From: a virus
Taxonomy: Duplodnaviria; Caudoviricetes
Length of the DNA: 34,762 bases
Reading direction: 5' to 3' (one strand)
IMG/VR virus record: IMGVR_UViG_3300020045_003800
Span: 1-34,762 of that record
This document shows, piece after piece, positions 16,069-27,819 of the stretch. Every line of letters begins with the position of its first letter. Position 1 is the stretch's first letter. The position numbers and the translations under genes are program-made. A model generated the notes under the pieces. That model saw nothing but the letters and a program-made list of their open reading frames with translations. It made no database searches and was not told the DNA's origin.

Positions 16069-16992
16069 TTAAGCTCCAATTTGCATAAAGGCTTGAGTAG
16101 GTACAACGTAAGAATCGATTGCACCGAAATTAAAACCATCGTCATCGTCTAATGTGTAACGTGAGTAATCCGCTGGTGTTGATGATTTGTTGACTCGAGC
16201 CTTGTTAATTTTGGGTTTCATTTTTTCAATGTAATGCCCTAATCCTGTCCAATTGTTTTTGATTGCGTCAGCCATTGCAGCATTTGCATCCATCCCTGTG
16301 TTTGTTATTTCGATTAGGATTTGGAACTGCCCGTTCATTGCTGTTTGCGTATTAGCCACTCGTTTTTCTTTTCTAACTTCCATCCAATCGTGCCATAAGT
16401 TCATATCGATACCGTCAATGATTGAATCTTTGTTGATGCGGTTTTTTGAAATCAAATAAGCCAACGCAAAAGTGAAATCGAAGTCTGTTTTCCAGTTCCA
16501 TTTTTTAGCAGGTTTTTCCTCAGTAACTTTTGGTTCTGTGGGTGTGGCGTTCTCTTGTTTACTATCTGGTTTATTATTTGTGTTTATATCTGGTATAGGT
16601 GAGACATTTTGTCCAATGGCTGAGACATTTTGTCCAATGGCTGAGACATTTTGTCCAATGGTGTCATTGCTAGAATCATTTGAAGCTGACGCAAATTCCA
16701 TTGGTATCGTGTACCACTGCGTTCTGTCATATCCTTTTTGATTGTAGTTACCAATAACAACCACACCTGCAATCATTAGTTTCTGCAAATTACGCGATAT
16801 TGTTCGACGGTTCATATATGGGAACAATTTCTCAAACGCCGCCGCGCTGTTGTATGTCCAAAAAAAGCCATCGTGTTCATGCTTGCCATTCGCTTTATTT
16901 TTTTCGAGCCAATGACGCAAGTTGTAAAGGATTACCGCCGATTCAACGCCATATTTTTCAGCGTCTTTTGTATCAAAACTATGTGTTGCCAT
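16069..16992 (-). CDS. Replication initiator (lambda O-analogue)
   Basis: N-terminal wHTH-type (AEKYGV..AVIL...W..KN...WTYNS...FPY...TI.R...DRT.WY); internal iterons; C-terminal W.DW...RK.K helical domain; alternative start 17031. Confidence 0.8.
   Translation of the reverse strand: MATHSFDTKDAEKYGVESAVILYNLRHWLEKNKANGKHEHDGFFWTYNSAAAFEKLFPYMNRRTISRNLQKLMIAGVVVIGNYNQKGYDRTQWYTIPMEFASASNDSSNDTIGQNVSAIGQNVSAIGQNVSPIPDINTNNKPDSKQENATPTEPKVTEEKPAKKWNWKTDFDFTFALAYLISKNRINKDSIIDGIDMNLWHDWMEVRKEKRVANTQTAMNGQFQILIEITNTGMDANAAMADAIKNNWTGLGHYIEKMKPKINKARVNKSSTPADYSRYTLDDDDGFNFGAIDSYVVPTQAFMQIGA
16600..16661. repeat. Iterons / probable origin of replication
   Basis: Three tandem TGAGACATTTTGTCCAATGG(C) 21-mers, each containing GACA-N3-TGTC, next to an AT-rich stretch inside the initiator gene. 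Confidence 0.85.
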
Positions 16993-17054
16993 TTGTTGAC
17001 CTATAATTTGTTTATGTGGCACAATTGCCATGTAATTAAAAAAACCTTTTTACT

Positions 17055-17088
17055 AACCCGCTTAACTGCCAAGCCTAGCGGGTTTTTT
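17055..17088 (+). terminator. Antisense-oriented terminator between cro and initiator (oop-like)
   Basis: AACCCGCT-14 nt-AGCGGGTT-TTTT on + strand. Confidence 0.65.
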
Positions 17089-17099
17089 ATTGTCTAAAA

Positions 17100-17294
17100 C
17101 TAAGCGAATACATCAGGACGAATCTCAGCCCGTGTAAATGCACCACCAGTTGCCTCTTCAATTCTTTTTGCCGTCTTTTGTGACGGTTTAATTTTCCCCG
17201 TTCTCCAATCGGAAACGGTTTGTTGTTTTACTTCAATAGCTATTGCCATTTTTTGCTGTGTGCCAAAATAGCCAATCAAACTATCAATAATCAT
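17100..17294 (-). CDS. cro: Cro-like repressor
   Basis: FGTQQKMA.AI.VKQQTVSDW...IEEATGG......IRPDVF; divergent from cI; AAGGAG SD. Confidence 0.88.
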   Translation of the reverse strand: MIIDSLIGYFGTQQKMAIAIEVKQQTVSDWRTGKIKPSQKTAKRIEEATGGAFTRAEIRPDVFA

Positions 17295-17323: not shown

Positions 17324-17393
17324 ATTTTACAGTTTAAAACTGTGAAGTCAACTCTAAACCTGTTTGAAACTGTACAGTTAAAAACTGTATGAT
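17324..17393. promoter_or_regulatory. OR operators with PR (leftward) and probable PRM (rightward)
   Basis: TACAGTTTAAAACTGTG 17328-17344 and TACAGTTAAAAACTGTA 17373-17389, with a degenerate site between them; PR TTGACT-16-TAAAAT on minus strand; TTGAAA-18-TATGAT on plus strand. Confidence 0.85.
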
Positions 17394-17443: not shown

Positions 17444-17815
17444 ATGTTGGGTAATAGAATAAGGATAGCGCGTGAGCTTGCGGGATTATCACAAGAGCAA
17501 CTTGCTGAAAAAGTCGGCATTAGACAGCAATCATTACAGGCGGCAGAGGTCGGAGAAACCGCCATGCCTAGAAAAATAAAACAAATCGCATTGGTGTTGG
17601 ACGTGAATCTTAATTGGCTAATCACTGGCGAAGGCGACATAAAGTCCCACAAATCAGAAATAGATAGCGCAATTTTTAGGATAGTAGGGATATTAGCAAA
17701 TAGTCAAAAAATGGAAATTCTAAAACTGGCGGAAAACTTTAAAGCTAGGAACGAAGAACTATTCAATGAAATAGGTGAGATTATGACCGCCAATAAAAAA
17801 CACTCACACGCATAA
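17444..17815 (+). CDS. cI: CI-like XRE repressor (no peptidase domain)
   Basis: LGNRIRIARELAGLSQEQLAEKVGIRQQS...IA..L.V...WLITGEG; AGGAGG SD; 123 aa. Confidence 0.88.
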   Translation: MLGNRIRIARELAGLSQEQLAEKVGIRQQSLQAAEVGETAMPRKIKQIALVLDVNLNWLITGEGDIKSHKSEIDSAIFRIVGILANSQKMEILKLAENFKARNEELFNEIGEIMTANKKHSHA

Positions 17816-18237: not shown

Positions 18238-18261
18238 AAACCCACTTCGGTGGGTTTTTTT
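18238..18261 (+). terminator. Terminator of immunity operon
   Basis: AAACCCAC-TTCG-GTGGGTTT-TTTT. Confidence 0.9.
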
Positions 18262-18302
18262 ATGCCCAATGGTTTTTGGGTAGGGATTTTATTTTGTATT
18301 TT

Positions 18303-18354
18303 TACAGTTTTTAACTGTTTTTATGTTTGACAATACAGTTTTTAACTGTAAAAT
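18303..18354 (+). promoter_or_regulatory. OL operators and PL promoter
   Basis: TACAGTTTTTAACTGTT 18303-18319 and TACAGTTTTTAACTGTA 18334-18350; TTGACA(18327)-16-TAAAAT(18349). Confidence 0.88.
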
Positions 18355-18362
18355 GAACCCGT

Positions 18363-18405
18363 CCTTTACAGAAAGGCGAAAGAAACATCACAAGCTCTTT
18401 AACAA
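18363..18405 (+). promoter_or_regulatory. boxB-like hairpin plus boxA antitermination site
   Basis: CCTTT-ACAG-AAAGG 18363-18376, then GCTCTTTAACAA 18394-18405 (boxA consensus). Confidence 0.75.
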
Positions 18406-18421
18406 AATGGAACTGAGTTAT

Positions 18422-18607
18422 CCCGTTGGGCTAAACACCAAAAAATCTATGGCACTAAAGAGGGTGCTTGCTGGTGAATAGTTCAACGGGCAGAAGTTGC
18501 AATTGGTGTAACCACTCAAAACAAGCTGGCATCGGCGGATAGATGTAGATGCAACCATTTTAGAGTAATGGGCGTTAAGGAATCGAGTGGTTACAACTAA
18601 TTACAAT
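18422..18607 (+). ncRNA. Candidate structured leader RNA (two large domains)
   Basis: 12-bp and 22-bp closing stems with G.U pairs and nested hairpins; no credible ORF. Confidence 0.65.
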
Positions 18608-18628
18608 TACAAAATGAGGATAAAAGAA

Positions 18629-18817
18629 ATGCGTAAATTCAGATTACAACTTACAAACGAACGCGAACCCATCTTAATCGTTGCGGATACAGATCGTGAC
18701 GCAATGGCGCAAATGAGAGAGTTAAAACGACATACCCGTGCCAATGTGGTGTCGTTCTTTGAAGTGTTTGATTCGCTACCGCGCTTTGAACAACAGTTCA
18801 ACAACATCTTTGCGTAA
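18629..18817 (+). CDS. Hypothetical protein, first gene of PL operon
   Basis: GAGGA SD before ATG 18629 (MRKFRLQL...). Confidence 0.7.
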   Translation: MRKFRLQLTNEREPILIVADTDRDAMAQMRELKRHTRANVVSFFEVFDSLPRFEQQFNNIFA

Positions 18818-18822
18818 CGCAC

Positions 18823-18856
18823 AAAAAAGCCCGAATTAGCACGAACTAAAACGGGC
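18823..18856 (-). terminator. Antisense-oriented terminator-like hairpin
   Basis: Minus strand GCCCG...CGGGC-TTTTTT with inner TTAG/CTAA pairing. Confidence 0.55.
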
Positions 18857-18888
18857 GAACTTCTTAAACTTTTCGAGAGAATCATAAC

Positions 18889-18996
18889 ATGAAAAACAAA
18901 AATGCCATCCGCGTTATCCGCAACTACAAATTCAAAGCCTTAACCAAACAGTTCTTTGCAGACATTGACAACATCGTCGGTGACTTTCGTGGCTAA
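18889..18996 (+). CDS. 35 aa basic peptide
   Basis: Manual translation MKNKNAIRVIRNYKFKALTKQFFADIDNIVGDFRG*; fills the operon gap. Confidence 0.5.
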   Translation: MKNKNAIRVIRNYKFKALTKQFFADIDNIVGDFRG

Positions 18997-19150
18997 GCTA
19001 ATTCAAGTCGCACAACTCATCACATGGTTAGCAGTTGCCACTTACTTCTCAATCCTTGCCGCTGACAAAATCAAACCTAAGCCCGTCAAAAGCGACATCG
19101 TGGCGCAGCTCGAAAACCAAAACAATTACGAGGTGTCTTATGTTCAATGA
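18989..19150 (+). CDS. Small membrane protein
   Basis: GTG start overlapping the previous ORF; N-terminal hydrophobic helix. Confidence 0.5.
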   Translation: MAKLIQVAQLITWLAVATYFSILAADKIKPKPVKSDIVAQLENQNNYEVSYVQ

Positions 19151-19280
19151 TCCTGATTTCGAACCCGAACAAAGCTACGAGGAATGGTGTTTAGAGCGCG
19201 ACGAAATGGAAGCATCTAAACAACGTTGTGCAATCAAACGCATGGCTCGTGAAATTCTCATATCTCTTTTAGAGATTTAA
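19140..19280 (+). CDS. Small hypothetical protein
   Basis: GAGGTG SD; MFNDPDFEPEQSYEEW... Confidence 0.6.
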   Translation: MFNDPDFEPEQSYEEWCLERDEMEASKQRCAIKRMAREILISLLEI

Positions 19281-19362
19281 CAAATATAAGTCCATTGACT
19301 TATCTCCTCGGCGTAAAGCCACACTCGAACCGCAGACGCGGATCATTTTTTTCGAGGTGTTT

Positions 19363-19563
19363 ATGAACGATTCAATGATTTTACTTTTATTTTTGGACGG
19401 CTTTGTCGCAGTCGTCGTCGCGTTACTTGTTACCCGTGAAGTCCGCTTATCTGCAATAGATAAAAAACGTCAATATCTGCGTAATAAAGCCTTTTTGGCT
19501 GTAAATCAAAACCCTGACGTGGAAACCTTGCAGGAAAGGCAAGTCCTGACGTTACAAGCGTGA
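19363..19563 (+). CDS. Small membrane protein
   Basis: GAGGTG SD; N-terminal TM helix. Confidence 0.6.
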   Translation: MNDSMILLLFLDGFVAVVVALLVTREVRLSAIDKKRQYLRNKAFLAVNQNPDVETLQERQVLTLQA

Positions 19564-19677
19564 AAGTGTGACGCATACGAAAAACACACGCAGTTGGGGC
19601 GGCTTAACCTCTCATTGTTAAGATTTTCCGAGCCGTGACCCAACACCTAACCCTAATTATTTTAAAGAGAGAACATT

Positions 19678-20136
19678 ATGAGCAGCACAAACGAAGCTAT
19701 CGACGCACAAAACACAGAATTGACAGCGCAACAACAAGCATCGTCAATCAGTATCACTACAAACTTGAATGATGCCGTTGAAAGCGATATGCCGCTTGGT
19801 GCAACGTACTGGACACCCGTAGACAAAGGCGAATTTAAACGCGGTGTGGTGGTTGGGCTGGAAGTGCAATCGTATGACAAGTTTGACGACAACACAGGCG
19901 AGCATTCGGTTTTGGAATTGCCCGTTGTGGTGTTGGCAGTACAAAAGCCTGATTTGAGCTGGGAACGAATCAGCAACGGCTCTAAGCGTTTAGTGGCAAC
20001 CATCGAACAAAGCGTTAAAAACGGTACAGTTTCATTATTCAAAACGCCGATCCAAGTTAAATATCTCGGAAAGGTTCGCAACACCACCAACGGCTTTTCT
20101 TCTGACACTTTTGAAGTAAAAACGTTGCTTGTTTAA
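19678..20136 (+). CDS. Putative ssDNA-binding/annealing protein (OB-fold-like)
   Basis: 152 aa beta-rich protein (YWTP..GE, I.V.YLGK...F.V) immediately upstream of the exonuclease. Confidence 0.5.
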   Translation: MSSTNEAIDAQNTELTAQQQASSISITTNLNDAVESDMPLGATYWTPVDKGEFKRGVVVGLEVQSYDKFDDNTGEHSVLELPVVVLAVQKPDLSWERISNGSKRLVATIEQSVKNGTVSLFKTPIQVKYLGKVRNTTNGFSSDTFEVKTLLV

Positions 20137-20171
20137 ATCTACCCCGCGCAAGGACGCGCAACTTTTGGAGA

Positions 20172-20885
20172 ATGAAAATGTATTTAGATATTGATTTATC
20201 AGGCGCAGGTATTGGCGCAACACTTAAAAGCACTGAAGAAACCCGTGAAACTGAGTGGCTCAAACAGCGATTAGGCAAGTTCACCGCGTCACAGTTCAGC
20301 AAGTTGATGACATATCCAAACAAAAACGAACTGCCAGCAGGTGCAATCACTTACATCATGGAAAAAGTGGTTGAAGTAGCAACCGATTTTGAACCCGAAC
20401 AAGGTTTTACCAGTGCAGCGATTCAATGGGGAAAGGATCACGAACTCGAAGCGGTTGAAAGATTCAGTGAATCACTTTTGCTTAATGTTGATTTCACGGG
20501 TGGCGCACAACAATTCATTGATTACCCATTGCTTAGAGCAGGTGCAACGCCAGACGGTTTGATTGATAGCTACGCAGGTTTAGAGGTGAAATGCCCAAAC
20601 AGTGCTACGCATCTATCTTATATGGCAATCAAGAACGCGGACGATTTAAAGCGAATTGCACCAAATTATTATTGGCAAGTGATGGGTAGCTTGATGATTA
20701 CGGGACGCGACCAATGGTTTTTCTGTTCTTACGATCCGAGATTCAAAGATGGAAACCTACAGCTCCACACAATAATCGTCGAACCCGTTTTGGCAGATAT
20801 TGAGTTTTTAAAAGAACGCCTTGCAATGGCAAAAGATTATTTTGAACAAGTGTGCAACTACAGAGGAATCAGTCATGCAGCATAA
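20172..20885 (+). CDS. YqaJ/lambda-exonuclease family protein
   Basis: EWLKQRLGKFTAS, WGKDHE..A, GATPDGLI, LEVKCP, YYWQV, FCSYDPR. Confidence 0.92.
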   Translation: MKMYLDIDLSGAGIGATLKSTEETRETEWLKQRLGKFTASQFSKLMTYPNKNELPAGAITYIMEKVVEVATDFEPEQGFTSAAIQWGKDHELEAVERFSESLLLNVDFTGGAQQFIDYPLLRAGATPDGLIDSYAGLEVKCPNSATHLSYMAIKNADDLKRIAPNYYWQVMGSLMITGRDQWFFCSYDPRFKDGNLQLHTIIVEPVLADIEFLKERLAMAKDYFEQVCNYRGISHAA

Positions 20886-20999
20886 AACCAAAAAGGCTTA
20901 TCGCAAACTTGCGTTGAAAAAGAAAGTTCAGATGTGGCGAAGCATCAAACAACTGTACTAAATCAATCACGCCACGGACGGCTTTTTTTAGGAGTGAAT

Positions 21000-21434
21000 A
21001 TGAGCAAAGAAGTAGCGGCAACAAAGAAACAGAAAGCGTTGGTATTTAATCAATTAACCCGCGAACAACGCGCATCATTAGATCGCAAAGCATCACACAC
21101 GATTTTAACAAATGCAGTTAGCGCGTTGCCTGACTATATCGACAAAAAAGGCGAACTTTCCAAACCAAACAAAGAAATGTTGGTGCGTAGTTTTTACAAG
21201 CGCATCAAAGATAAGTTTGAAATGTCGTGCGAAGAAATAGACGAAAGTGGCAATGTAATGATGTCAAACGCTGTGCGTGCTTTGCGTGAAGATGGTGAAT
21301 TTATCATTGGGCAATACTTGAAGGCTTGGAACGGTACACAGGAACAATACGACAACTTGAAAGCAAAACTTAGAGCATTGGTTGATTCAACTAAAACGGG
21401 TTTTGATTATCGAATGAAGGAATTGGAGTTTTAG
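21000..21434 (+). CDS. Hypothetical protein
   Basis: AGGAG SD before ATG 21000; helical, charged. Confidence 0.75.
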   Translation: MSKEVAATKKQKALVFNQLTREQRASLDRKASHTILTNAVSALPDYIDKKGELSKPNKEMLVRSFYKRIKDKFEMSCEEIDESGNVMMSNAVRALREDGEFIIGQYLKAWNGTQEQYDNLKAKLRALVDSTKTGFDYRMKELEF

Positions 21435-21436
21435 AA

Positions 21437-22465
21437 ATGGCGAATGAATTAACAACGCTTTTAACGCTTGCTGTTGAAATTGACGCACTTAACGAACAGG
21501 CGAATATCTTTGCAAATCAAGCAGTGATTTATGCAGCAAAAAGCGGTCAAAAATTATTGTTGGCAAAAGCACAATGCAATCACGGTCAATTCAAAAGTTG
21601 GCTAGATGAGAATTGCAAATTGCCATATTCAACAGCAAATAAATACATGAAATTGGCAACAGCACGACCTGAGCTTTTAACTTCAAATGTACCGTTGACG
21701 GTACTTTTGCCATCCATCACGCAAATGATGGAATTGATGACAGCCGACGAATCAGTAAATGAAGTCGTAACCGCAAAAATCGAATCAGGCGAAGATGTAA
21801 CCATCAAAGAAATCCAACGCTTGAAAAAAGAAGCTGCTGATTTATTAGCCGAAAAAGAATCTACTCAAAAAGACTTAATGTTCACAAAATCAATGCTTGA
21901 AGCAGAAAGCACAAAGTATCAAGCCGCAAGTCGCCAACGTGACGAACTTAGAGATAATCAACAGCAAATCATTGATGCAAAACTGAGCGAAGAACGCGCA
22001 AAGCTGGTGTTAGAGAATCATCAAGCCATTGCAGAAGCAAAGCGCGAACACGATAACACCAAAAGCGAAATTGAACGCCTTAAACGCGAACAAGCGAAAG
22101 CAATTTCAGACGGAATCGGTAAAAAGATGCTTGAACTTGACAACGAAATTCGCAGCAAGGAACAATCCGTTTTAACGCTTGAGAATCGCACTAATGAATT
22201 ACTTGAAACTAAGCGGTCACTCGATAAAGAAGTGGGGTTGATTCAAGTACACAAACAAGCATTTGAAGCGGCATCGAAAGAATTACACGCATTCACGACC
22301 AGTTTCGCAGAGGCACACGACACAAGAGAAATTCCAGCGGAGTGCTTTAATGATTGGCAATCTTTGTATTACGGGATTTCAAAACTCAAAAAACAAATGG
22401 GGCAATGGTTCGATGACAAAGCACCCAGAGATGCTGAAGCGTTAATCGGTGAACTGGTGAACTAA
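21437..22465 (+). CDS. DUF3102-like domain protein with coiled-coil
   Basis: GQKLLLAKAQCNHGQFKSWLDENCKLPYSTANKYMKLA signature; long heptad region. Confidence 0.8.
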   Translation: MANELTTLLTLAVEIDALNEQANIFANQAVIYAAKSGQKLLLAKAQCNHGQFKSWLDENCKLPYSTANKYMKLATARPELLTSNVPLTVLLPSITQMMELMTADESVNEVVTAKIESGEDVTIKEIQRLKKEAADLLAEKESTQKDLMFTKSMLEAESTKYQAASRQRDELRDNQQQIIDAKLSEERAKLVLENHQAIAEAKREHDNTKSEIERLKREQAKAISDGIGKKMLELDNEIRSKEQSVLTLENRTNELLETKRSLDKEVGLIQVHKQAFEAASKELHAFTTSFAEAHDTREIPAECFNDWQSLYYGISKLKKQMGQWFDDKAPRDAEALIGELVN

Positions 22466-22644
22466 TGCCAAGCTATTCAACCTGCCCGATTTGTAAGCAG
22501 CACCGAACAAGCCGATTTCACACGAACAAATGCAGCCAGTTAGCGCGTGAGATTGGCAGGGAGGAAACGCCGAAAGGTATCACGATAATAAAACCTGATT
22601 TTCATGTCTATAAACGCCGCGCAGGTTCACAAAGGAGTTATTGA
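22465..22644 (+). CDS. Small zinc-finger-like protein (59 aa)
   Basis: Manual translation MPSYSTCPICKQHRTSRFHTNKCSQ...; TAATG coupling. Confidence 0.55.
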   Translation: MPSYSTCPICKQHRTSRFHTNKCSQLAREIGREETPKGITIIKPDFHVYKRRAGSQRSY

Positions 22645-22817
22645 TGTACTTGTTAATTTTATTGCTCGTGAGTTTGATTTTTGTTGTGATTTTCTTTGTG
22701 GAGTACGCGGTAAATTTCACGGACTGCAAACACGCACACTGGGCGCAATACCAGTCAAAAAAATGCCGCGTCTGTATCGAATGCGGAAAAATCGAACCCA
22801 CTAAAAGACACTTATGA
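22644..22817 (+). CDS. Small membrane-anchored Cys-rich protein (57 aa)
   Basis: Manual translation MYLLILLLVSLIFVVIFFVEY...CKH.HW...RVCIECGKIE; AAGGAG SD; coupled on both sides. Confidence 0.6.
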   Translation: MYLLILLLVSLIFVVIFFVEYAVNFTDCKHAHWAQYQSKKCRVCIECGKIEPTKRHL

Positions 22818-23038
22818 AAAATACACTGACAGACCTAAATAACCACTTGTTCGCACAATTAGAGCGCATTAGTGAAGAAGGTATCACTGATGAACGATTG
22901 GTGATTGAAAGCGGACGCACCAAAGACATTACATTACTTGCGAAAGAAATCATTAACAACGCGCGTTTAGTATTGGATGCACAAACTCGAATCTGTGACA
23001 TTCCAGAACGTAAAGAACTACCTGCAATGCTCCAATGA
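22814..23038 (+). CDS. Conserved phage protein (HNH partner)
   Basis: MKNTLTDLNNHLFAQLERI motif, commonly adjacent to this HNH family. Confidence 0.8.
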   Translation: MKNTLTDLNNHLFAQLERISEEGITDERLVIESGRTKDITLLAKEIINNARLVLDAQTRICDIPERKELPAMLQ

Positions 23039-24090
23039 ACAGTGGTCAGTTTAAACGTGGTCAGTTAGCGTGGAATAAAGGCTTGAAAGGTTCGACAGGA
23101 TTTAGTGAGAGTCGATTTAAAAAAGGCAACATTCCACATCATAGGCGAGAAATTGGCGAGGAACGTATTGATTACGAAGGTTACACCTACACTAAAATTT
23201 CATGTGTGCGACATGGTTACAAGGATAAGTTTTGGCGGTTAAAACATCGTGAAATATGGGAAAGCGTTCATGGTGAAATACCGCCAAATTCAATTATTTG
23301 CTTTTACGACAACAACAAACAAAACTTTGAAATCAGTAACCTTTTTCGAATTACGCGAGCTGAAAACGTTATTTTGAACAAGCTAAAGTTTGCAAGTGAA
23401 CCTGTTGAACTCAAACCTACAATTCTGGCATTGGTACGGTTACAAATGGCAATGAAAGAATTATCAAAAAAAAAGGATAAGCGAGCTAGCTACACACCCG
23501 AACAAATTGAGTTTTTAAAATGTTATCCGTTATTAGATCGTGCGGTTTTGACTGAGAAGTTTAACGCACGATTTGGCACAACAAAGAGCATTGATGCTAT
23601 CCGCAACTATTGTCGCAATGGCTTAGGGATGAGGATGCCGCCATCGGGACAATTTAAAAAAGGGTCTGTGCCGATTAACGCAGGTAAAAAAGGCTTTTGT
23701 TTTGCTGGTTCAGAAAAAGGTTGGTTTAAAAAAGGACACGCAATGAACGAGTACGAAGTCGGTACGGAATTCATGAAAGAAGGAACGATATTCATTAAAT
23801 ACACAGACGAACACAAACTACCTCGTCACAACTTCGCGCCGAAACATCGAGTAATTTGGCGGAAATATCACGGTGAAATTGGACGCGACGACTTGATTAT
23901 TTTCAAAGACGGCAATCGCTTGAATTGCACCATTGAAAACCTTGAACGCGTCGATAGAGGTGTTTTTATGAAAGTGGCAAAAGAAGGTTTTTTACAAGAA
24001 CCCGTCGAACTAAGACCGACTATTTTAGCGGTTGCAAAACTGAGCATTAAGGCAAAAAAGATAACTAGCGAAAGAGGAATCAATGACTAA
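23035..24090 (+). CDS. Tandem-duplicated HNH-like protein
   Basis: Two units of GQFK.G...FKKG...KHR.IW...HGEI...II.F.D.N..N..I.NL...EPVEL.PTILA. Confidence 0.85.
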   Translation: MNSGQFKRGQLAWNKGLKGSTGFSESRFKKGNIPHHRREIGEERIDYEGYTYTKISCVRHGYKDKFWRLKHREIWESVHGEIPPNSIICFYDNNKQNFEISNLFRITRAENVILNKLKFASEPVELKPTILALVRLQMAMKELSKKKDKRASYTPEQIEFLKCYPLLDRAVLTEKFNARFGTTKSIDAIRNYCRNGLGMRMPPSGQFKKGSVPINAGKKGFCFAGSEKGWFKKGHAMNEYEVGTEFMKEGTIFIKYTDEHKLPRHNFAPKHRVIWRKYHGEIGRDDLIIFKDGNRLNCTIENLERVDRGVFMKVAKEGFLQEPVELRPTILAVAKLSIKAKKITSERGIND

Positions 24091-24180
24091 AAAAGAGTAT
24101 GACAGTATTTACAGAAAATTAAATCGTGACAAAGAAACGGCACGGGTTCAAAAATTTAGACAAAAGCAAAAGGAATCAAA

Positions 24181-24597
24181 ATGAGTAATGTTTTTAGTGG
24201 TGTGTGTACTGTTGGTAGAGACGCAGAGGTTCGTAGCTTGCCATCGGGTCAGTCAGTGTTAAATGTCACTGTCGCCAACAACGTTGGATTCGGGGATAAG
24301 CAACAGACTGTTTGGTTGCGTGTAGTTTTATGGGGAAAACGCGCAGAAGGATCGCTAAAAGATTTTCTAAAGAAAGGTCAGCAGGTTTTTGTATCTGGAG
24401 AAATTACAACAACTGAATATCAAAAAAACGATGGTACACAAGGATTTGCGCTTGAGCTTAACGCGAACATTATTGATTTAATAGGTAAGCGTTCAGACGT
24501 TCCAAAACCCGAAACCGTTGTGACGTATGCACCACCGCCAAGCGTTTCAAGTCATGCCCCCGCGCCAACGAAATACGACGATGATATTCCGTTTTAA
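24181..24597 (+). CDS. ssb: Single-stranded DNA-binding protein
   Basis: VGRDAEVR, W.RVVLWGKRAE, LKKGQQVFVSGE; C-terminal DDDIPF. Confidence 0.95.
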   Translation: MSNVFSGVCTVGRDAEVRSLPSGQSVLNVTVANNVGFGDKQQTVWLRVVLWGKRAEGSLKDFLKKGQQVFVSGEITTTEYQKNDGTQGFALELNANIIDLIGKRSDVPKPETVVTYAPPPSVSSHAPAPTKYDDDIPF

Positions 24598-24671
24598 CCG
24601 CTAAAAAACAACCTGTGTCCGATATTTCTCGGATTGTCGGACACAAACTTCAACTAAATCTAGGAATCAAA

Positions 24672-24998
24672 ATGAGTTTTAATTTATATCAAACGCAAGC
24701 TATGCGAACCGCAAAAATCGAAGGGTTTAAATTCAATATCGGACACGCCGCATTAGGCATTAGTGGTGAATCGGGTGAGTTTTCGGACTGTGTTAAAAAA
24801 TACCTCGTTTATGGTCAAGCATTAGATCGTGAAAATGCCGCTGAGGAATTAGGGGATTTGCTGTGGTACATTGCTTTGGGCTGTGAAACATTAGGCGTGT
24901 CAATGGCAGATGTAGCAATACAAAACATCAATAAATTACAGGCGCGTTATCCTGATAAATACAGTGATTTTCACGCAATCGAAAGGTTAGATAAATGA
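24672..24998 (+). CDS. MazG-like nucleotide pyrophosphohydrolase
   Basis: ALGISGESGEF.D.VKK, EELGDLLWY, NINKLQARYP; AGGA SD before ATG 24672. Confidence 0.9.
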   Translation: MSFNLYQTQAMRTAKIEGFKFNIGHAALGISGESGEFSDCVKKYLVYGQALDRENAAEELGDLLWYIALGCETLGVSMADVAIQNINKLQARYPDKYSDFHAIERLDK

Positions 24999-25201
24999 GT
25001 GGGATTGAACAGGCTGTAATCGACAAAATCAAAACCCGTGCTGAATTTGGCGAAAAGAAGTACAAAACCACGATGGAGCGTACCGATTTATCAAAACTCC
25101 AATGGCTTCAACACGCACAAGACGAAATGATGGACGCTGCTATTTATATGCAAAAACTCATTGAAGTTGAACAAAACTCACACGCGGCAAATTACGAATG
25201 A
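24995..25201 (+). CDS. Small all-alpha NTP-pyrophosphatase-like protein
   Basis: RAEFGEKKY.TT..R.DL...WLQHAQDEMMDAAIY (EE/DE..D pattern). Confidence 0.6.
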   Translation: MSGIEQAVIDKIKTRAEFGEKKYKTTMERTDLSKLQWLQHAQDEMMDAAIYMQKLIEVEQNSHAANYE

Positions 25202-25779
25202 AAGTAGAACTCTTACAGCACACGCCAAACCCAGAAGTTTTTATCGGTCAAATGGCGGGGATTTGCTACGGCAAAGAAAACAGCGACGATGCCACTTGCA
25301 TTAAGCGCGCCGCGCATTGCGTTGAAAAAGGGCATTTATCGACGCTTAGATTCGCACACGCCACGTTTCACATTAGCGGCATTAGTCGGGTGTGTTCGCA
25401 TCAACTGGTAAGATCAAAATTTATAGACGTTCTCCAGCGTTCACAGCGGTATTGCAATGAATCACAGTCGGACGTTGTGATCCCTGATTCAATCGTGAAT
25501 GATGCTAGAAAGTTAAATCGCTTCAACGAGGCTATGGAATACAGCTACGCTGTTTATGCCAACCTTATTGGTGACGGTATAAAAAAAGAAGATGCACGAA
25601 TGATTTTGCCCGCTTGCACCACTACTGAAATGGTTGTTACGGGTTCATTTCAAGCATGGCGTGATTTTATTCGCTTGCGTGATACGAAAGAAGCACAGCA
25701 AGAAATTCGTGAGTTAGCACAAGAAATAAAACGGCAACTTATTGAGATTGCACCTAACATTTTTGGAGGTGTGAAATGA
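25198..25779 (+). CDS. thyX: FAD-dependent thymidylate synthase
   Basis: AGICY, GHLSTL, ISGISRVCSHQLVR...QRSQRY, KEDARMILP, AQQEIRELA. Confidence 0.9.
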   Translation: MKVELLQHTPNPEVFIGQMAGICYGKENSDDATCIKRAAHCVEKGHLSTLRFAHATFHISGISRVCSHQLVRSKFIDVLQRSQRYCNESQSDVVIPDSIVNDARKLNRFNEAMEYSYAVYANLIGDGIKKEDARMILPACTTTEMVVTGSFQAWRDFIRLRDTKEAQQEIRELAQEIKRQLIEIAPNIFGGVK

Positions 25780-26120
25780 GCAAAGATCAGGATCAAGCAT
25801 TGCTAGAAATAAAACGCCTAATCAACACAAGTATGATTCAGTCCAGATTTGGAATTTTTGACAAGATATTAGATGTTATTGATGGTGTGCAAAACCCAAA
25901 GCCGCCCGCGCCCACCGTCGAGGTTGGGCAAGTTTGGCGGCATATCGGAGGCTTAACGACTGATAGTAATTATTATATAAAATCGCTAGGCACGGTAAAA
26001 GTTAATGAAGAATGGCAAGATTCGGTTACTTATTGGAAAACTATAGTTGAGTTAGATCCAAGAGAGTTCACCCGCGCATTATCTGATTTCATTGCGAAGT
26101 TCGAGCAGGTGCAACCATGA
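25776..26120 (+). CDS. Hypothetical protein (DUF1653-like C-terminus)
   Basis: GQVWRH..G...Y...V.Y...FTR.LSDF.AKFE pattern. Confidence 0.65.
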   Translation: MSKDQDQALLEIKRLINTSMIQSRFGIFDKILDVIDGVQNPKPPAPTVEVGQVWRHIGGLTTDSNYYIKSLGTVKVNEEWQDSVTYWKTIVELDPREFTRALSDFIAKFEQVQP

Positions 26121-26260
26121 AATTTGAAAGAGTTATAGATTACATCTGCTTTACAGCTGGAGCGTCTGTGGTTGTAGCGGTTAGCGTATGGGCAGTTAAA
26201 GCTATCTTGGTTTATGGGATTTTACAATGACTGCTAAGTTCAACCGCGTAGGAGGTTCAG

Positions 26261-26635
26261 ATGCACATAGTAATTAGACCATGTTTATCACTAAGGATGA
26301 AGGTATGTAGATTTGATGATTCAGTAGTAGATGGCTTTGTTTTTAAAATACCTTTCTTTTCCTGCTCTGTATTCTACACATCAGCGGATAGACTCCTGAT
26401 TGATACATTTAGTAGAACTCACAGGGGCTGTAAGTTTGTTGCGGTAGGTTCGGGAGATTGGGTTGATTCGTTTAACGAACGTACCGAGTCAATGCGTAAA
26501 TCCCACGCTATTGCGATGGATAACCGCTGGAAAGAAGAATTAAGACTTCGTGGAAGTGTTGACGAGCTTGAGAATGAAAATAGGATTCTCAAGAAAGCAA
26601 TTAAAATTATTGAAAGCGTGGGAAATTCAGAATGA
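26261..26635 (+). CDS. Hypothetical protein
   Basis: AGGAGG SD; 124 aa. Confidence 0.7.
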   Translation: MHIVIRPCLSLRMKVCRFDDSVVDGFVFKIPFFSCSVFYTSADRLLIDTFSRTHRGCKFVAVGSGDWVDSFNERTESMRKSHAIAMDNRWKEELRLRGSVDELENENRILKKAIKIIESVGNSE

Positions 26636-26835
26636 CAACTAAGCACCCGCTGAATTTAATGGCAGAACATCTTGCGGCAAGGTCAAAAGATATTGCAGAT
26701 AGAGATGTTATCATCGAGGAATTGGTTGAGGCTTTGATTGCTTGCGACGAAGCAATGGAATATATGAGTGAGTACGACATACCTATTACATTGCCGCAAC
26801 AAGTCAAAGATGCAATCGCCAAAGCCACATCTTAA
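26632..26835 (+). CDS. Hypothetical protein
   Basis: ATGA-coupled; ELVEAL...AIAKAT pattern common in phage early genes. Confidence 0.7.
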   Translation: MTTKHPLNLMAEHLAARSKDIADRDVIIEELVEALIACDEAMEYMSEYDIPITLPQQVKDAIAKATS

Positions 26836-26842
26836 TTAACCC

Positions 26843-26878
26843 AAACGCCGTAAAGTAATTTATGGCGTTTCTTATTTT
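26843..26878 (+). terminator. Terminator-like hairpin
   Basis: AAACGCCGTAAA-GTAA-TTTATGGCGTTT then a T-rich tract. Confidence 0.7.
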
Positions 26879-27133: not shown

Positions 27134-27754
27134 CTACCACTTCACTAAGTGCATACAATCCCGCAAAACCTTCTTCGCTTCACCACCTGTTAAGCCTTCC
27201 AAAATCGCCATAATCAAATCCTGTTTTGGTTTTTTTTCGGGAGAAAATACATTTTCTATTTTCTCCCTTTCTTCTTCAATCGGTCTGCCTGTAATCAAAG
27301 GCTTATCTGTTGGGATGATACGCACGGGGACAGGTTTATTTTTAGGAATTGGCAAACTTTCACCTTTTCGGATTGCAATCTGTTTGCGAATTTCTGCAAG
27401 CGGCAAATTTTTCCCCTTTGCATATTCATAAACTTCAACGGCAATATCAGAATTGATAGGCGCAGCGATTTCATAAGCAGCCGATATAGAAATTTTCTCT
27501 ATAGGGCGTTTTTCAAAAAAACGGGCTAGATTCATTAACTTAGTTCGATGTTGGCGACTGGTGGAATAAATTGCTCCACCTGTATTTTCAATCCATGCGC
27601 CGAATTCATTATCTGACTTAAACCTTTCACGCGCCTCTAACAAAATCTGACCTTGAAATAATTGCCCTTGCCGTTCAATTGATTCAAATCTATCCGCTAA
27701 CTGCTCAAGTGACAATGTTGTTAAATTATCTGAATTTGTCGTTAAATCTGACAT
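27134..27754 (-). CDS. DUF3102-like protein, separately promoted
   Basis: GQILLEARERF....EFGAWIE.......RTKLMNLARFF...ISAAYEIAAP resembles the N-terminus of 21437..22465. Confidence 0.7.
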   Translation of the reverse strand: MSDLTTNSDNLTTLSLEQLADRFESIERQGQLFQGQILLEARERFKSDNEFGAWIENTGGAIYSTSRQHRTKLMNLARFFEKRPIEKISISAAYEIAAPINSDIAVEVYEYAKGKNLPLAEIRKQIAIRKGESLPIPKNKPVPVRIIPTDKPLITGRPIEEEREKIENVFSPEKKPKQDLIMAILEGLTGGEAKKVLRDCMHLVKW

Positions 27755-27819
27755 AAAAAAACCCGCTCAAGTGTTAAAACCAAAGCGGGTGATTATAAGC
27801 GGGTTTGATGTTGCGTCAA
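27755..27819 (-). promoter_or_regulatory. Late-operon terminator with an overlapping sigma70 promoter
   Basis: TTGACG-16-TATAAT (27819-27792), then ACCCGCT-16 nt-AGCGGGT-TTTTTT directly before ATG 27754. Confidence 0.75.

What the first reader, a model, noticed from the sequence alone, without database searches (positions are those of the whole stretch)
18356..18628. Highly structured ~250-nt leader RNA behind PL and boxA
Seen: after PL come a small hairpin, boxA and two large domains. Domain 1: CCCGTTGGGCTA (18422-33) pairs with TAGTTCAACGGG (18479-90; two G.U), enclosing CACCA/TGGTG and GGCACT/GGTGCT. Domain 2: GTTGCAATTGGTGTAACCACTC (18496-517) pairs with GAGTGGTTACAACTAATTACAAT (18585-607; one mismatch, one bulge, two G.U), enclosing GCATC/GATGC and CCATT/AATGG hairpins as a multibranch junction. 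No credible ORF lies here and it ends just before the SD of the first gene. Established: the lambda PL leader has nut plus an RNase III stem, and HK022 uses a two-hairpin put RNA for protein-independent antitermination. Inference: this could be an RNA antiterminator or an RNase III-excised small RNA. I do not recognise it as a known family and see no obvious N gene.
Basis: partly seen in the sequence, partly recalled or inferred. Interest (0 to 1): 0.75.

Follow-up and report, generated by a model that had tools for sequence, protein, structure and literature searches.

The report
Ribosomal-type boxA leader in N-less phage
The predicted early-left transcript of this lake phage starts with an exact copy of the ribosomal-RNA signal boxA, followed by two long predicted RNA stems; this lambda-like layout, with no recognisable N gene, likely lets host Nus factors keep transcription going while host RNase III likely cuts the stems, and similar boxA leaders are common in phages.

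Summary
The structure is real: z -4.3 against shuffles, no Rfam match. It is the untranslated leader of PL in a complete lambda-type podophage whose host is probably a Methylococcaceae methanotroph. The leader has two kinds of part. (1) A 5' hairpin and boxA, whose 20 nt are identical to the 16S-23S spacer boxA of two host-family genomes; lake relatives keep boxA. (2) Two long stems that relatives keep (one contig, 2 of 3 stem changes break pairs) or replace. Only the 22-position base of domain 2 recurs, in one relative, with one compensatory change (model E 1e-4). No boxB, N-like gene or put similarity was found. Best reading (0.5): a lambda-style leader that uses host rRNA-type Nus antitermination without N, with RNase III-type stems before gene 1. 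An RNA-only antiterminator or an excised small RNA is not supported but not excluded. Promoter-plus-boxA leaders are common (about 640 IMG/VR stretches), and this scan has noted N-less ones before on other DNA. New variant of a known kind; interest 0.38.

The parts
17100..17294 (-). cro-like repressor, first gene of PR
   Evidence: phrog_35, E 9e-16
17324..17393 (.). OR: divergent PR and PRM with two operator-like palindromes (17329, 17374)
17444..17815 (+). cI-like repressor (123 aa, HTH)
   Evidence: phrog_2328, E 1e-17
18238..18262 (+). predicted intrinsic terminator ending the cI operon
18304..18349 (.). OL: two operator-like palindromes overlapping PL
   Evidence: repeat families D6/D7, inverted repeat I11
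18327..18354 (+). PL promoter (-35 / 16 nt / -10); start site predicted near 18360-62
   Evidence: 11 of 12 consensus; start site inferred
18360..18378 (+). 5' hairpin in the position of rrn boxB; identical in several lake contigs with other upstream promoter sequence, replaced in others
18393..18412 (+). boxA (18394-405) with its rRNA-spacer-type 3' extension; 20 of 20 identical to the 16S-23S spacer boxA of G163 (two places) and G164
   Evidence: fits the consensus quoted in PMC5725501; only exact copy in the window
18422..18490 (+). domain 1: 12-bp stem, 2x2 loop, 5 bp, asymmetric loop, 6-bp hairpin; sits where lambda has boxB; variable among relatives; possible RNase III site
   Evidence: z -5.4; RNase III score -25.3; absent from L008
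18496..18607 (+). domain 2: 22-position basal helix (one mismatch, one 3'-arm A bulge) closing a variable interior; predicted RNase III site, best register giving new 5' ends near 18509 and 18596
   Evidence: z -4.7; basal helix found in L008 by a window-only model, 27.5 bits, E 1.2e-4; score -25.1
18616..18817 (+). SD (18616-20) and gene 1 (18629-18817, 62 aa, unknown function, not N-like)
   Evidence: 6 homologues; no family hit

Best explanation
This is the untranslated leader of a lambda-type PL transcript: a 5' hairpin and a boxA identical to the rRNA-spacer boxA of the probable host family likely load the host Nus complex without any phage N protein, and the long stems that follow are predicted RNase III sites like the stem in the lambda N leader. 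Shown: the PL/operator/cI/cro layout, the folds, the boxA identity, the lack of boxB and of a recognisable N gene, and the lack of terminator-like hairpins on the PL strand for 8.5 kb. Inferred, step by step: (1) after induction, RNA polymerase starts near 18361; (2) NusB/NusE bind boxA and recruit NusA, NusG and SuhB as on rRNA operons, shielding the 8.5-kb early operon of small genes from Rho; (3) domains 1 and 2 fold co-transcriptionally, keeping about 220 untranslated bases compact and poor in Rho-loading single strand; (4) RNase III cuts the basal helix of domain 2, and perhaps domain 1, separating the Nus-bound 5' piece from the SD of gene 1 and so freeing its translation, as reported for lambda N. 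The two domains would be interchangeable spacer and processing modules, not the antiterminator.
For: boxA: 20 of 20 identical to the rRNA spacer boxA in 2 of 346 family genomes, 3 places. Of 117 metagenome loci with boxA plus AAAT-RR-AA, 54 lie next to rRNA, and all 54 have the window's GG variant (54 of 63 GG, 0 of 54 other variants). PMC2724277 states that rrn antitermination needs neither N nor boxB and suppresses Rho-dependent terminators; PMC13753749 states that boxA suffices to form the complex. NusB and RNase III are present in 5 of 5 family genomes tested. No N: 0 hits to N families among the 56 window ORFs given to PHROGs, Pfam or NCBIfam, while the same PHROG library called 2 of 2 control ORFs N-like. 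An arginine-rich-motif scan found no PL-strand ORF but caught 4 of 6 controls. No + strand terminator-like site lies between 18360 and 26843, where about 4 are expected from the shuffle rates. Modularity: contigs of runs X1 and X2 match hairpin plus boxA to 18412 with no differences, run on unlike for 267 letters and rejoin in gene 1; other contigs carry at least one further unlike sequence behind boxA. Geometry: lambda (L128) and two N-encoding prophages (L246, L281) show a long helix with a 1-nt 3'-arm bulge ending shortly before the first SD. The 22-position helix equals the two-turn ideal substrate (PMC3867540). Domains 2 and 1 and the L008 stem score -25.1, -25.3 and -22.2 on the published E. 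coli matrix, whose cut-off is -25.5; lambda scores -23.0.
Against: No expression, end-mapping or functional data. The RNase III scores come from helix length, not sequence: random pairs threaded on the same structure do as well (P 0.54, 0.41 and 0.11; lambda 0.002). I took the best of many registers, which is more lenient than the paper's use, and two T7-like stems missed the cut-off (-27.2, -28.4). Covariation rests on 2 sequences, and MAFFT did not align their 5' arms. In the close relative in run X6, 2 of 3 stem changes break + strand pairs, 1 improves a pair, and 2 further changes hit the boxA extension. boxA is only 57% unpaired in the ensemble. There is no boxA behind cro, whereas lambda has nut sites on both arms. 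boxA can also repress: in suhB it promotes Rho termination (PMC5725501). N proteins are short and divergent, so an unrecognised one is possible, and relative L008 has a GAAAA-loop hairpin behind an imperfect boxA. The host is inferred from relatives binned in metagenome-assembled genomes.
Confidence: 0.5

Rival explanations
1. boxA acts mainly as a brake: the Nus complex held at boxA represses translation of gene 1 across the compact leader and favours Rho polarity (as at suhB), and RNase III cleavage of domain 2 is the switch that releases it, tying early expression to host growth.
For: PMC5725501 passages: boxA represses over at least 100 nt, and lambda nutL represses N translation over about 200 structured nt. 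The boxA-to-SD distance here is 210 nt, and the stems shorten it.
Against: The boxA lies far from the SD at the head of a long operon of small genes; the same placement before a phage tRNA cluster (L005) and before T7-like ocr genes (L252) suits antitermination better.
Confidence: 0.14
2. A nut site for an unrecognised phage antiterminator protein: domain 1 (or the 5' hairpin) is a non-canonical boxB bound by one of the small unknown early proteins.
For: Domain 1 sits where lambda has boxB. L008 has boxA-like, 9 nt, then a GAAAA-loop hairpin. Many PL-operon ORFs have no family.
Against: No arginine-rich or N-family ORF. Gene 1 homologues sit at other positions: third gene behind the leader in L008, behind the replication genes in L171. 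No second site on the PR arm.
Confidence: 0.12
3. RNase III excises the inside of domain 2 (about 87 nt, near 18509-18595) as a stable small RNA that acts in trans (C4/CI-like antisense regulator, Hfq sRNA or protein decoy).
For: A basal helix closing two hairpins is the shape of such precursors (recalled), and a double cut would release the fragment.
Against: The interior differs in length and sequence in L008, where the model aligns only the basal helix. Its inner pairing is ambiguous. Complements of 10 nt or more elsewhere in the phage are few, 12 nt at most, and scattered as by chance.
Confidence: 0.1
4. Domains 1 and 2 form an RNA-only antiterminator that binds RNA polymerase (put-like), alone or extending the Nus complex to intrinsic terminators.
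For: Two adjacent stems in an N-less PL leader; its z (-5.4) is lower than that of all 73 comparable boxA leaders. N-less lambdoid phages are customarily assigned to put (PMC12315714).
Against: No similarity to HK022 putL (p 0.72), and the HK022 PL leader has no boxA within 2 mismatches. put is a 73-nt two-stem unit with sequence-critical bases (PMC9378689), whereas these domains span 186 nt and are replaced in relatives. No intrinsic terminator to overcome was found in the operon.
Confidence: 0.07
5. The stems are uncleaved structural filler that stabilises the message's 5' end and hides Rho-loading sites; only boxA is selected at sequence level.
For: Pair-breaking changes are tolerated in X6. 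Other boxA leaders range widely in structure (median z -1.9, 18 of 73 at or below -3).
Against: The basal helix, with its bulge and non-Watson-Crick fifth position, recurs in L008, which suggests a sequence-reading partner.
Confidence: 0.07

Closest known systems
Phage lambda PL / N leader (nutL plus the RNase III stem)
   Same: Operators over PL, 5' hairpin, boxA, then a long helix with a 1-nt 3'-arm bulge closing inner hairpins and ending just before the first SD.
   Different: No boxB and no N; boxA is the rRNA-type consensus; an extra 69-nt domain; no detectable sequence or model similarity (p 0.95; no lambda hit at E <= 5); no site on the PR arm.
rRNA operon antitermination signal (boxB hairpin, boxA; NusB/E/A/G, SuhB, S4)
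   Same: Hairpin-then-boxA order; 20 of 20 identity to the 16S-23S spacer boxA of G163 and G164; followed by RNase III-type helices.
   Different: Lies on a phage mRNA under repressor control; the helices are local rather than flanking an rRNA; no boxC tested.
HK022 put RNA
   Same: RNA structure in the PL leader of a phage with no N.
   Different: No sequence similarity; much larger; comes with a boxA that HK022's leader lacks.
boxA before suhB and CRISPR arrays; T7-like early leaders
   Same: Host-type boxA used outside rRNA (PMC5725501, PMC13753749 passages). T7-like records L244 and L252 carry promoter, boxA and a stem before the first gene, which in L252 is ocr-like.
   Different: Different stems. 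That T7 early stems are RNase III sites is recalled, not from a call.
P1 C4 / P4 CI antisense RNAs
   Same: A basal stem closing two hairpins inside an early leader (recalled).
   Different: No Rfam match, no target sites, interior not conserved.

Membership tests
lambda-type nut/N antitermination | boxA near an early promoter | tested here: met
   18394-405, about 33 nt after the predicted start
lambda-type nut/N antitermination | short boxB hairpin with a GNRA-like loop just after boxA | tested here: not met
   none in the fold; lambda, L246 and L281 show one
lambda-type nut/N antitermination | N gene (arginine-rich motif) first in the PL operon | tested here: not met
   controls recognised
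lambda-type nut/N antitermination | second nut site behind cro | tested here: not met
   no boxA within 2 mismatches near cro
rrn-type boxA antitermination signal | consensus boxA as in host rRNA operons | tested here: met
   20 of 20 with the G163/G164 spacer boxA; consensus from PMC5725501
rrn-type boxA antitermination signal | host encodes NusB | tested here: met
   5 of 5 family genomes; the host itself is inferred
rrn-type boxA antitermination signal | Nus-dependent read-through of Rho terminators | not testable with these tools
   needs a reporter or in vitro assay
RNase III substrate | helix of about 22 bp | tested here: met
   domain 2: 22 positions; criterion from PMC3867540
RNase III substrate | pair preferences around the cut | tested here: inconclusive
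   passes the -25.5 cut-off but no better than random pairs on the same structure; the matrix is from E. coli
RNase III substrate | rnc-dependent ends with 2-nt overhang | not testable with these tools
   needs end mapping
HK022 put RNA | about 73-nt two-stem unit with conserved critical bases | tested here: not met
   p 0.72 against putL; features from PMC9378689
HK022 put RNA | factor-independent binding to the beta-prime zinc-binding domain | not testable with these tools
   needs in vitro transcription
C4/CI-type antisense RNA | single-stranded segments complementary to sites in the same transcript | tested here: not met
   one 10-nt match in the PL operon, chance level; the feature is recalled
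any Rfam 15 family | match at the gathering score | tested here: not met
   0 hits at E <= 1 in the window; best local hit E 7.4

The most novel reading that the evidence does not exclude
The conserved bulged base of domain 2 is a processing or protein-recognition element of an undescribed class of methanotroph-phage leaders, in which host rRNA-maturation machinery (Nus complex plus RNase III) both antiterminates the early operon and cuts out interchangeable RNA cassettes that act as small RNAs: the phage treats its leader as a mini rRNA precursor that delivers variable RNA payloads.
Probability: 0.1. Interest if true: 0.75.

Novelty: new variant of a known kind. Interest (0 to 1): 0.38.

Why it matters
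N-less lambdoid phages are usually assumed to use put RNA. This leader, and the roughly 640 promoter-plus-boxA stretches estimated in IMG/VR, point to a simpler route: borrowing the host's rRNA antitermination signal unchanged. That can be tested with one point mutation. It would mean such phages depend on NusB/SuhB and tie early expression to ribosome-synthesis capacity. The particular stems here matter less: they look replaceable and are known from only one distant and one close relative.

Tried and rejected
No homologue in INPHARED phages (39 records, all matching only the upstream terminator) or in PLSDB. IMG/VR scans with cI, gene 1 and a domain 2 pattern found nothing. The hairpin-boxA pattern gave 1 chance hit in a portal gene. 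The basal-stem pattern gave 40 hits, none with boxA upstream, taken as chance. The exonuclease scan gave 4 distant phages with no boxA. The metagenome scan with gene 1 confirmed 0 of 258 candidates; none of the 117 boxA-pattern metagenome loci matched beyond the boxA region. In 346 family genomes, DNA search gave only short matches (16 genomes), and the stem pattern hit only L008 (used to build it) plus 1 other place, against 4 control hits, so it is not independent evidence. The model search of 151 of those genomes gave 1 hit, a hairpin between convergent chromosomal genes, and missed L008 under its stricter filters, so it is insensitive. The model found nothing at E < 0.2 in the 80 of 120 promoter-boxA loci that I gave it. 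A first model with one mistyped pair was not used. No RNA holder was listed among 18 runs; I laid 6 of the 18, and X4 and X5 gave identical rows, so they count once. Uncovered parts in X1, X2 and X4 are no evidence apart from the bridging contig. The Atlas search for gene 1 gave only unnamed clusters at 0.84. A 6-bp pairing between the domain 1 loop and the domain 2 interior is possible by eye, but is expected by chance and was not pursued. A minus-strand RNA was considered because all three X6 stem changes fit it; rejected because promoter, boxA and SD face + and the L008 match scores higher on + (27.5 against 21.4 bits). Literature searches found no paper describing boxA-only antitermination in an N-less temperate phage; the library holds only open-licence papers, and the classic lambda papers are not in it.

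Full report
Context. The window is a complete 34.8-kb virus record with direct terminal repeats: a P22-like podophage with portal, capsid, terminase and ejection proteins. It has a lambda-type switch: cro-like 17100-17294 (-), cI-like 17444-17815 (+), one accessory gene, a terminator at 18238, and operator-like palindromes over both PR/PRM and PL. Public DNA holders are lake and freshwater metagenomes. Gene 1 relatives lie in two metagenome-assembled genomes, one titled Methylococcaceae, and in 5 of 346 genomes of that family. The host is therefore probably a methanotroph; this is inferred.

Observation. All stated pairings are present. The leader folds far better than shuffles (z -4.31; domains -5.4 and -4.7). 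The reverse strand folds nearly as well, so strand rests on promoter, boxA and SD. The inner hairpins of domain 2 have two alternatives. There is no Rfam match. The 220 nt behind boxA give z -5.4; among 73 other promoter-boxA leaders the median is -1.9, 18 are at or below -3 and 2 at or below -5, and 10 of 73 have a helix of 20 pairs or more (73 distinct leaders with enough sequence among 80 of the 120 loci). So it is strongly structured but lies at the end of a continuum.

boxA is the conserved, host-like part. Window 18393-18412 is identical over 20 nt to the 16S-23S spacer boxA in G163 (two places) and G164. In metagenomes, 54 of 117 loci with boxA plus AAAT-RR-AA flank rRNA, and every one of them has the GG variant of the window. 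It fits the gammaproteobacterial consensus of PMC5725501 (passages) and is the only exact copy in the phage. Contigs from lake runs carry hairpin plus boxA unchanged behind other promoter sequences. One contig, seen in X1 and X2 (same study), matches 18357-18412 exactly, runs on unlike for 267 letters and rejoins within gene 1. I could see only 30 letters of such inserts, so whether they fold is open; the joint was found at 80% likeness.

The stems are variable, except the base of domain 2. The X6 contig covers 18379-18720 with 13 differences, 8 of them listed and 5 of those in the leader: two in the boxA extension, two that break pairs and one that turns G.U into G-C. The distant relative L008 shares the operator type and gene 1. 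Behind its first gene it has an imperfect boxA, a GAAAA-loop hairpin and a 19-bp helix. A model built from window domain 2 alone ranks this helix first among non-self hits in 76 kb (27.5 bits, E 1.2e-4, rough calibration) and aligns only the basal helix. Over its first 11 positions there is one compensatory change (U-A against C-G), one consistent change (G.U against G-C) and a non-Watson-Crick fifth position in both, followed by a 3'-arm A bulge; the upper helix pairs with different letters. The 5' arms share 12 of 14 letters, a level reached at 2 of 101,154 background positions, a set that includes L008 itself. In its full context L008 can also fold differently, with the GAAAA hairpin excluding this helix and the next gene's SD paired. 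Two sequences are suggestive, not a covariation proof.

No N, no put. None of the window ORFs tested hits an N family, although controls do. An arginine-rich scan finds no PL-strand candidate and recovers 4 of 6 controls. No boxB follows boxA. HK022 putL shows no similarity (p 0.72), and its leader has no boxA (put features from passages of PMC9378689). No terminator-like hairpin lies on the PL strand from 18360 to 26843, against about 4 expected. According to PMC2724277 (passages), rrn antitermination acts on Rho-dependent terminators and needs neither N nor boxB, which fits. PMC13753749 (passages) calls boxA sufficient for the complex. NusB and RNase III are present in 5 of 5 family genomes.

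RNase III. Lambda's leader (L128) and two N-encoding prophages have the same geometry: a long helix with a single 3'-arm bulge closing inner hairpins shortly before the first SD. There is no sequence or model similarity to lambda, so this is analogy. The 22-position helix matches the two-turn ideal substrate (passages of PMC3867540). Using the pair-count matrix of PMC6212723 (passages, section 27 and supplement part 1 of 25), the best registers score -25.1 (domain 2), -25.3 (domain 1), -22.2 (L008) and -23.0 (lambda) against a cut-off of -25.5. Only lambda beats random pairs on its own structure, and two T7-like stems fail. The result is compatible with cleavage but not diagnostic. That lambda N translation is repressed through nutL across a structured leader is from PMC5725501 (passages); the releasing role of RNase III is recalled, and I saw only the titles of the Wilson papers in that reference list.

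How common. A promoter-plus-consensus-boxA pattern has about 640 estimated stretches in IMG/VR. The 116 distinct ones read include N-type lambdoid leaders, T7-like early leaders and many with neither boxB nor an N-like first gene (7 of 116 showed a boxB-like hairpin in my scan). Other examples are L006 (repressor, then boxA and a long leader) and L227 (boxA behind cro in a family genome). I did not classify these systematically, and some are chance or rRNA matches. Earlier notes of this scan describe N-less boxA leaders in at least six other genomes; they are unchecked notes, and my reading was stated before I saw them. My literature searches found no paper on boxA-only antitermination in temperate phages; PMC12315714 (passages) and PMC7326022 (passages) show the usual guesses, put RNA or an unknown first gene. 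PMC12360218 and PMC2800207 were read as passages only. Subscription papers and bioRxiv supplements were out of reach and may bear on novelty.

Verdict. A real, uncatalogued structured leader. It works like the lambda N leader in layout and like an rRNA operon in its signal, but it is not a member of nut/N or put by the features tested. I give 0.5 to Nus-dependent, N-independent antitermination with RNase III-type spacer stems, and 0.1 or less each to an RNA-only antiterminator or a small-RNA payload. New variant of a known kind; interest 0.38.

Noticed in passing
window, whole record: The record is classed as complete and has cI, cro and OL/OR, but no integrase and no Q-like antiterminator hit among the ORFs scanned. 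How it lysogenises and turns on late genes is open; the cI is short (123 aa) with only an HTH hit.
   Followed up: partly
window 27134-27819 (-) and 21437-22465 (+): A 206-aa gene behind the ejection genes has its own near-consensus promoter (11 of 12); by eye its N-terminus resembles the DUF3102 protein at 21437. Possibly a moron or antirepressor.
   Followed up: no
window 18828-18908 (-) and 17045-17085: A hairpin with a T-run on the minus strand after gene 1, with a weak minus-strand promoter about 50 nt away, could give a short antisense RNA; similar A-tract hairpins follow gene 1 homologues in L009 and L171.
   Followed up: no
window 16595-16661: Three 21-nt-spaced repeats inside the O-like replication gene, likely origin iterons.
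   Followed up: no
L008 1234-1745: In this relative boxA lies behind a first gene (113 aa, beta-rich, KOW/SH3-like by eye, no confident family), and the leader has two mutually exclusive folds, one pairing the next SD: a possible RNA switch.
   Followed up: partly
L005 3001-5651: A phage contig has a consensus boxA 45 nt before a cluster of 11 tRNA genes.
   Followed up: partly
L244, L252 and similar loci: T7-like early promoters carry a consensus boxA before a stem and, in L252, an ocr-like gene; the stem shares 8 bp with window domain 2 in flipped orientation. The match may be chance.
   Followed up: partly
L227 (G320:C28) 1055-1810: A family prophage has boxA behind cro, followed by a structured stretch and two inserted genes before the replication gene.
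   Followed up: partly
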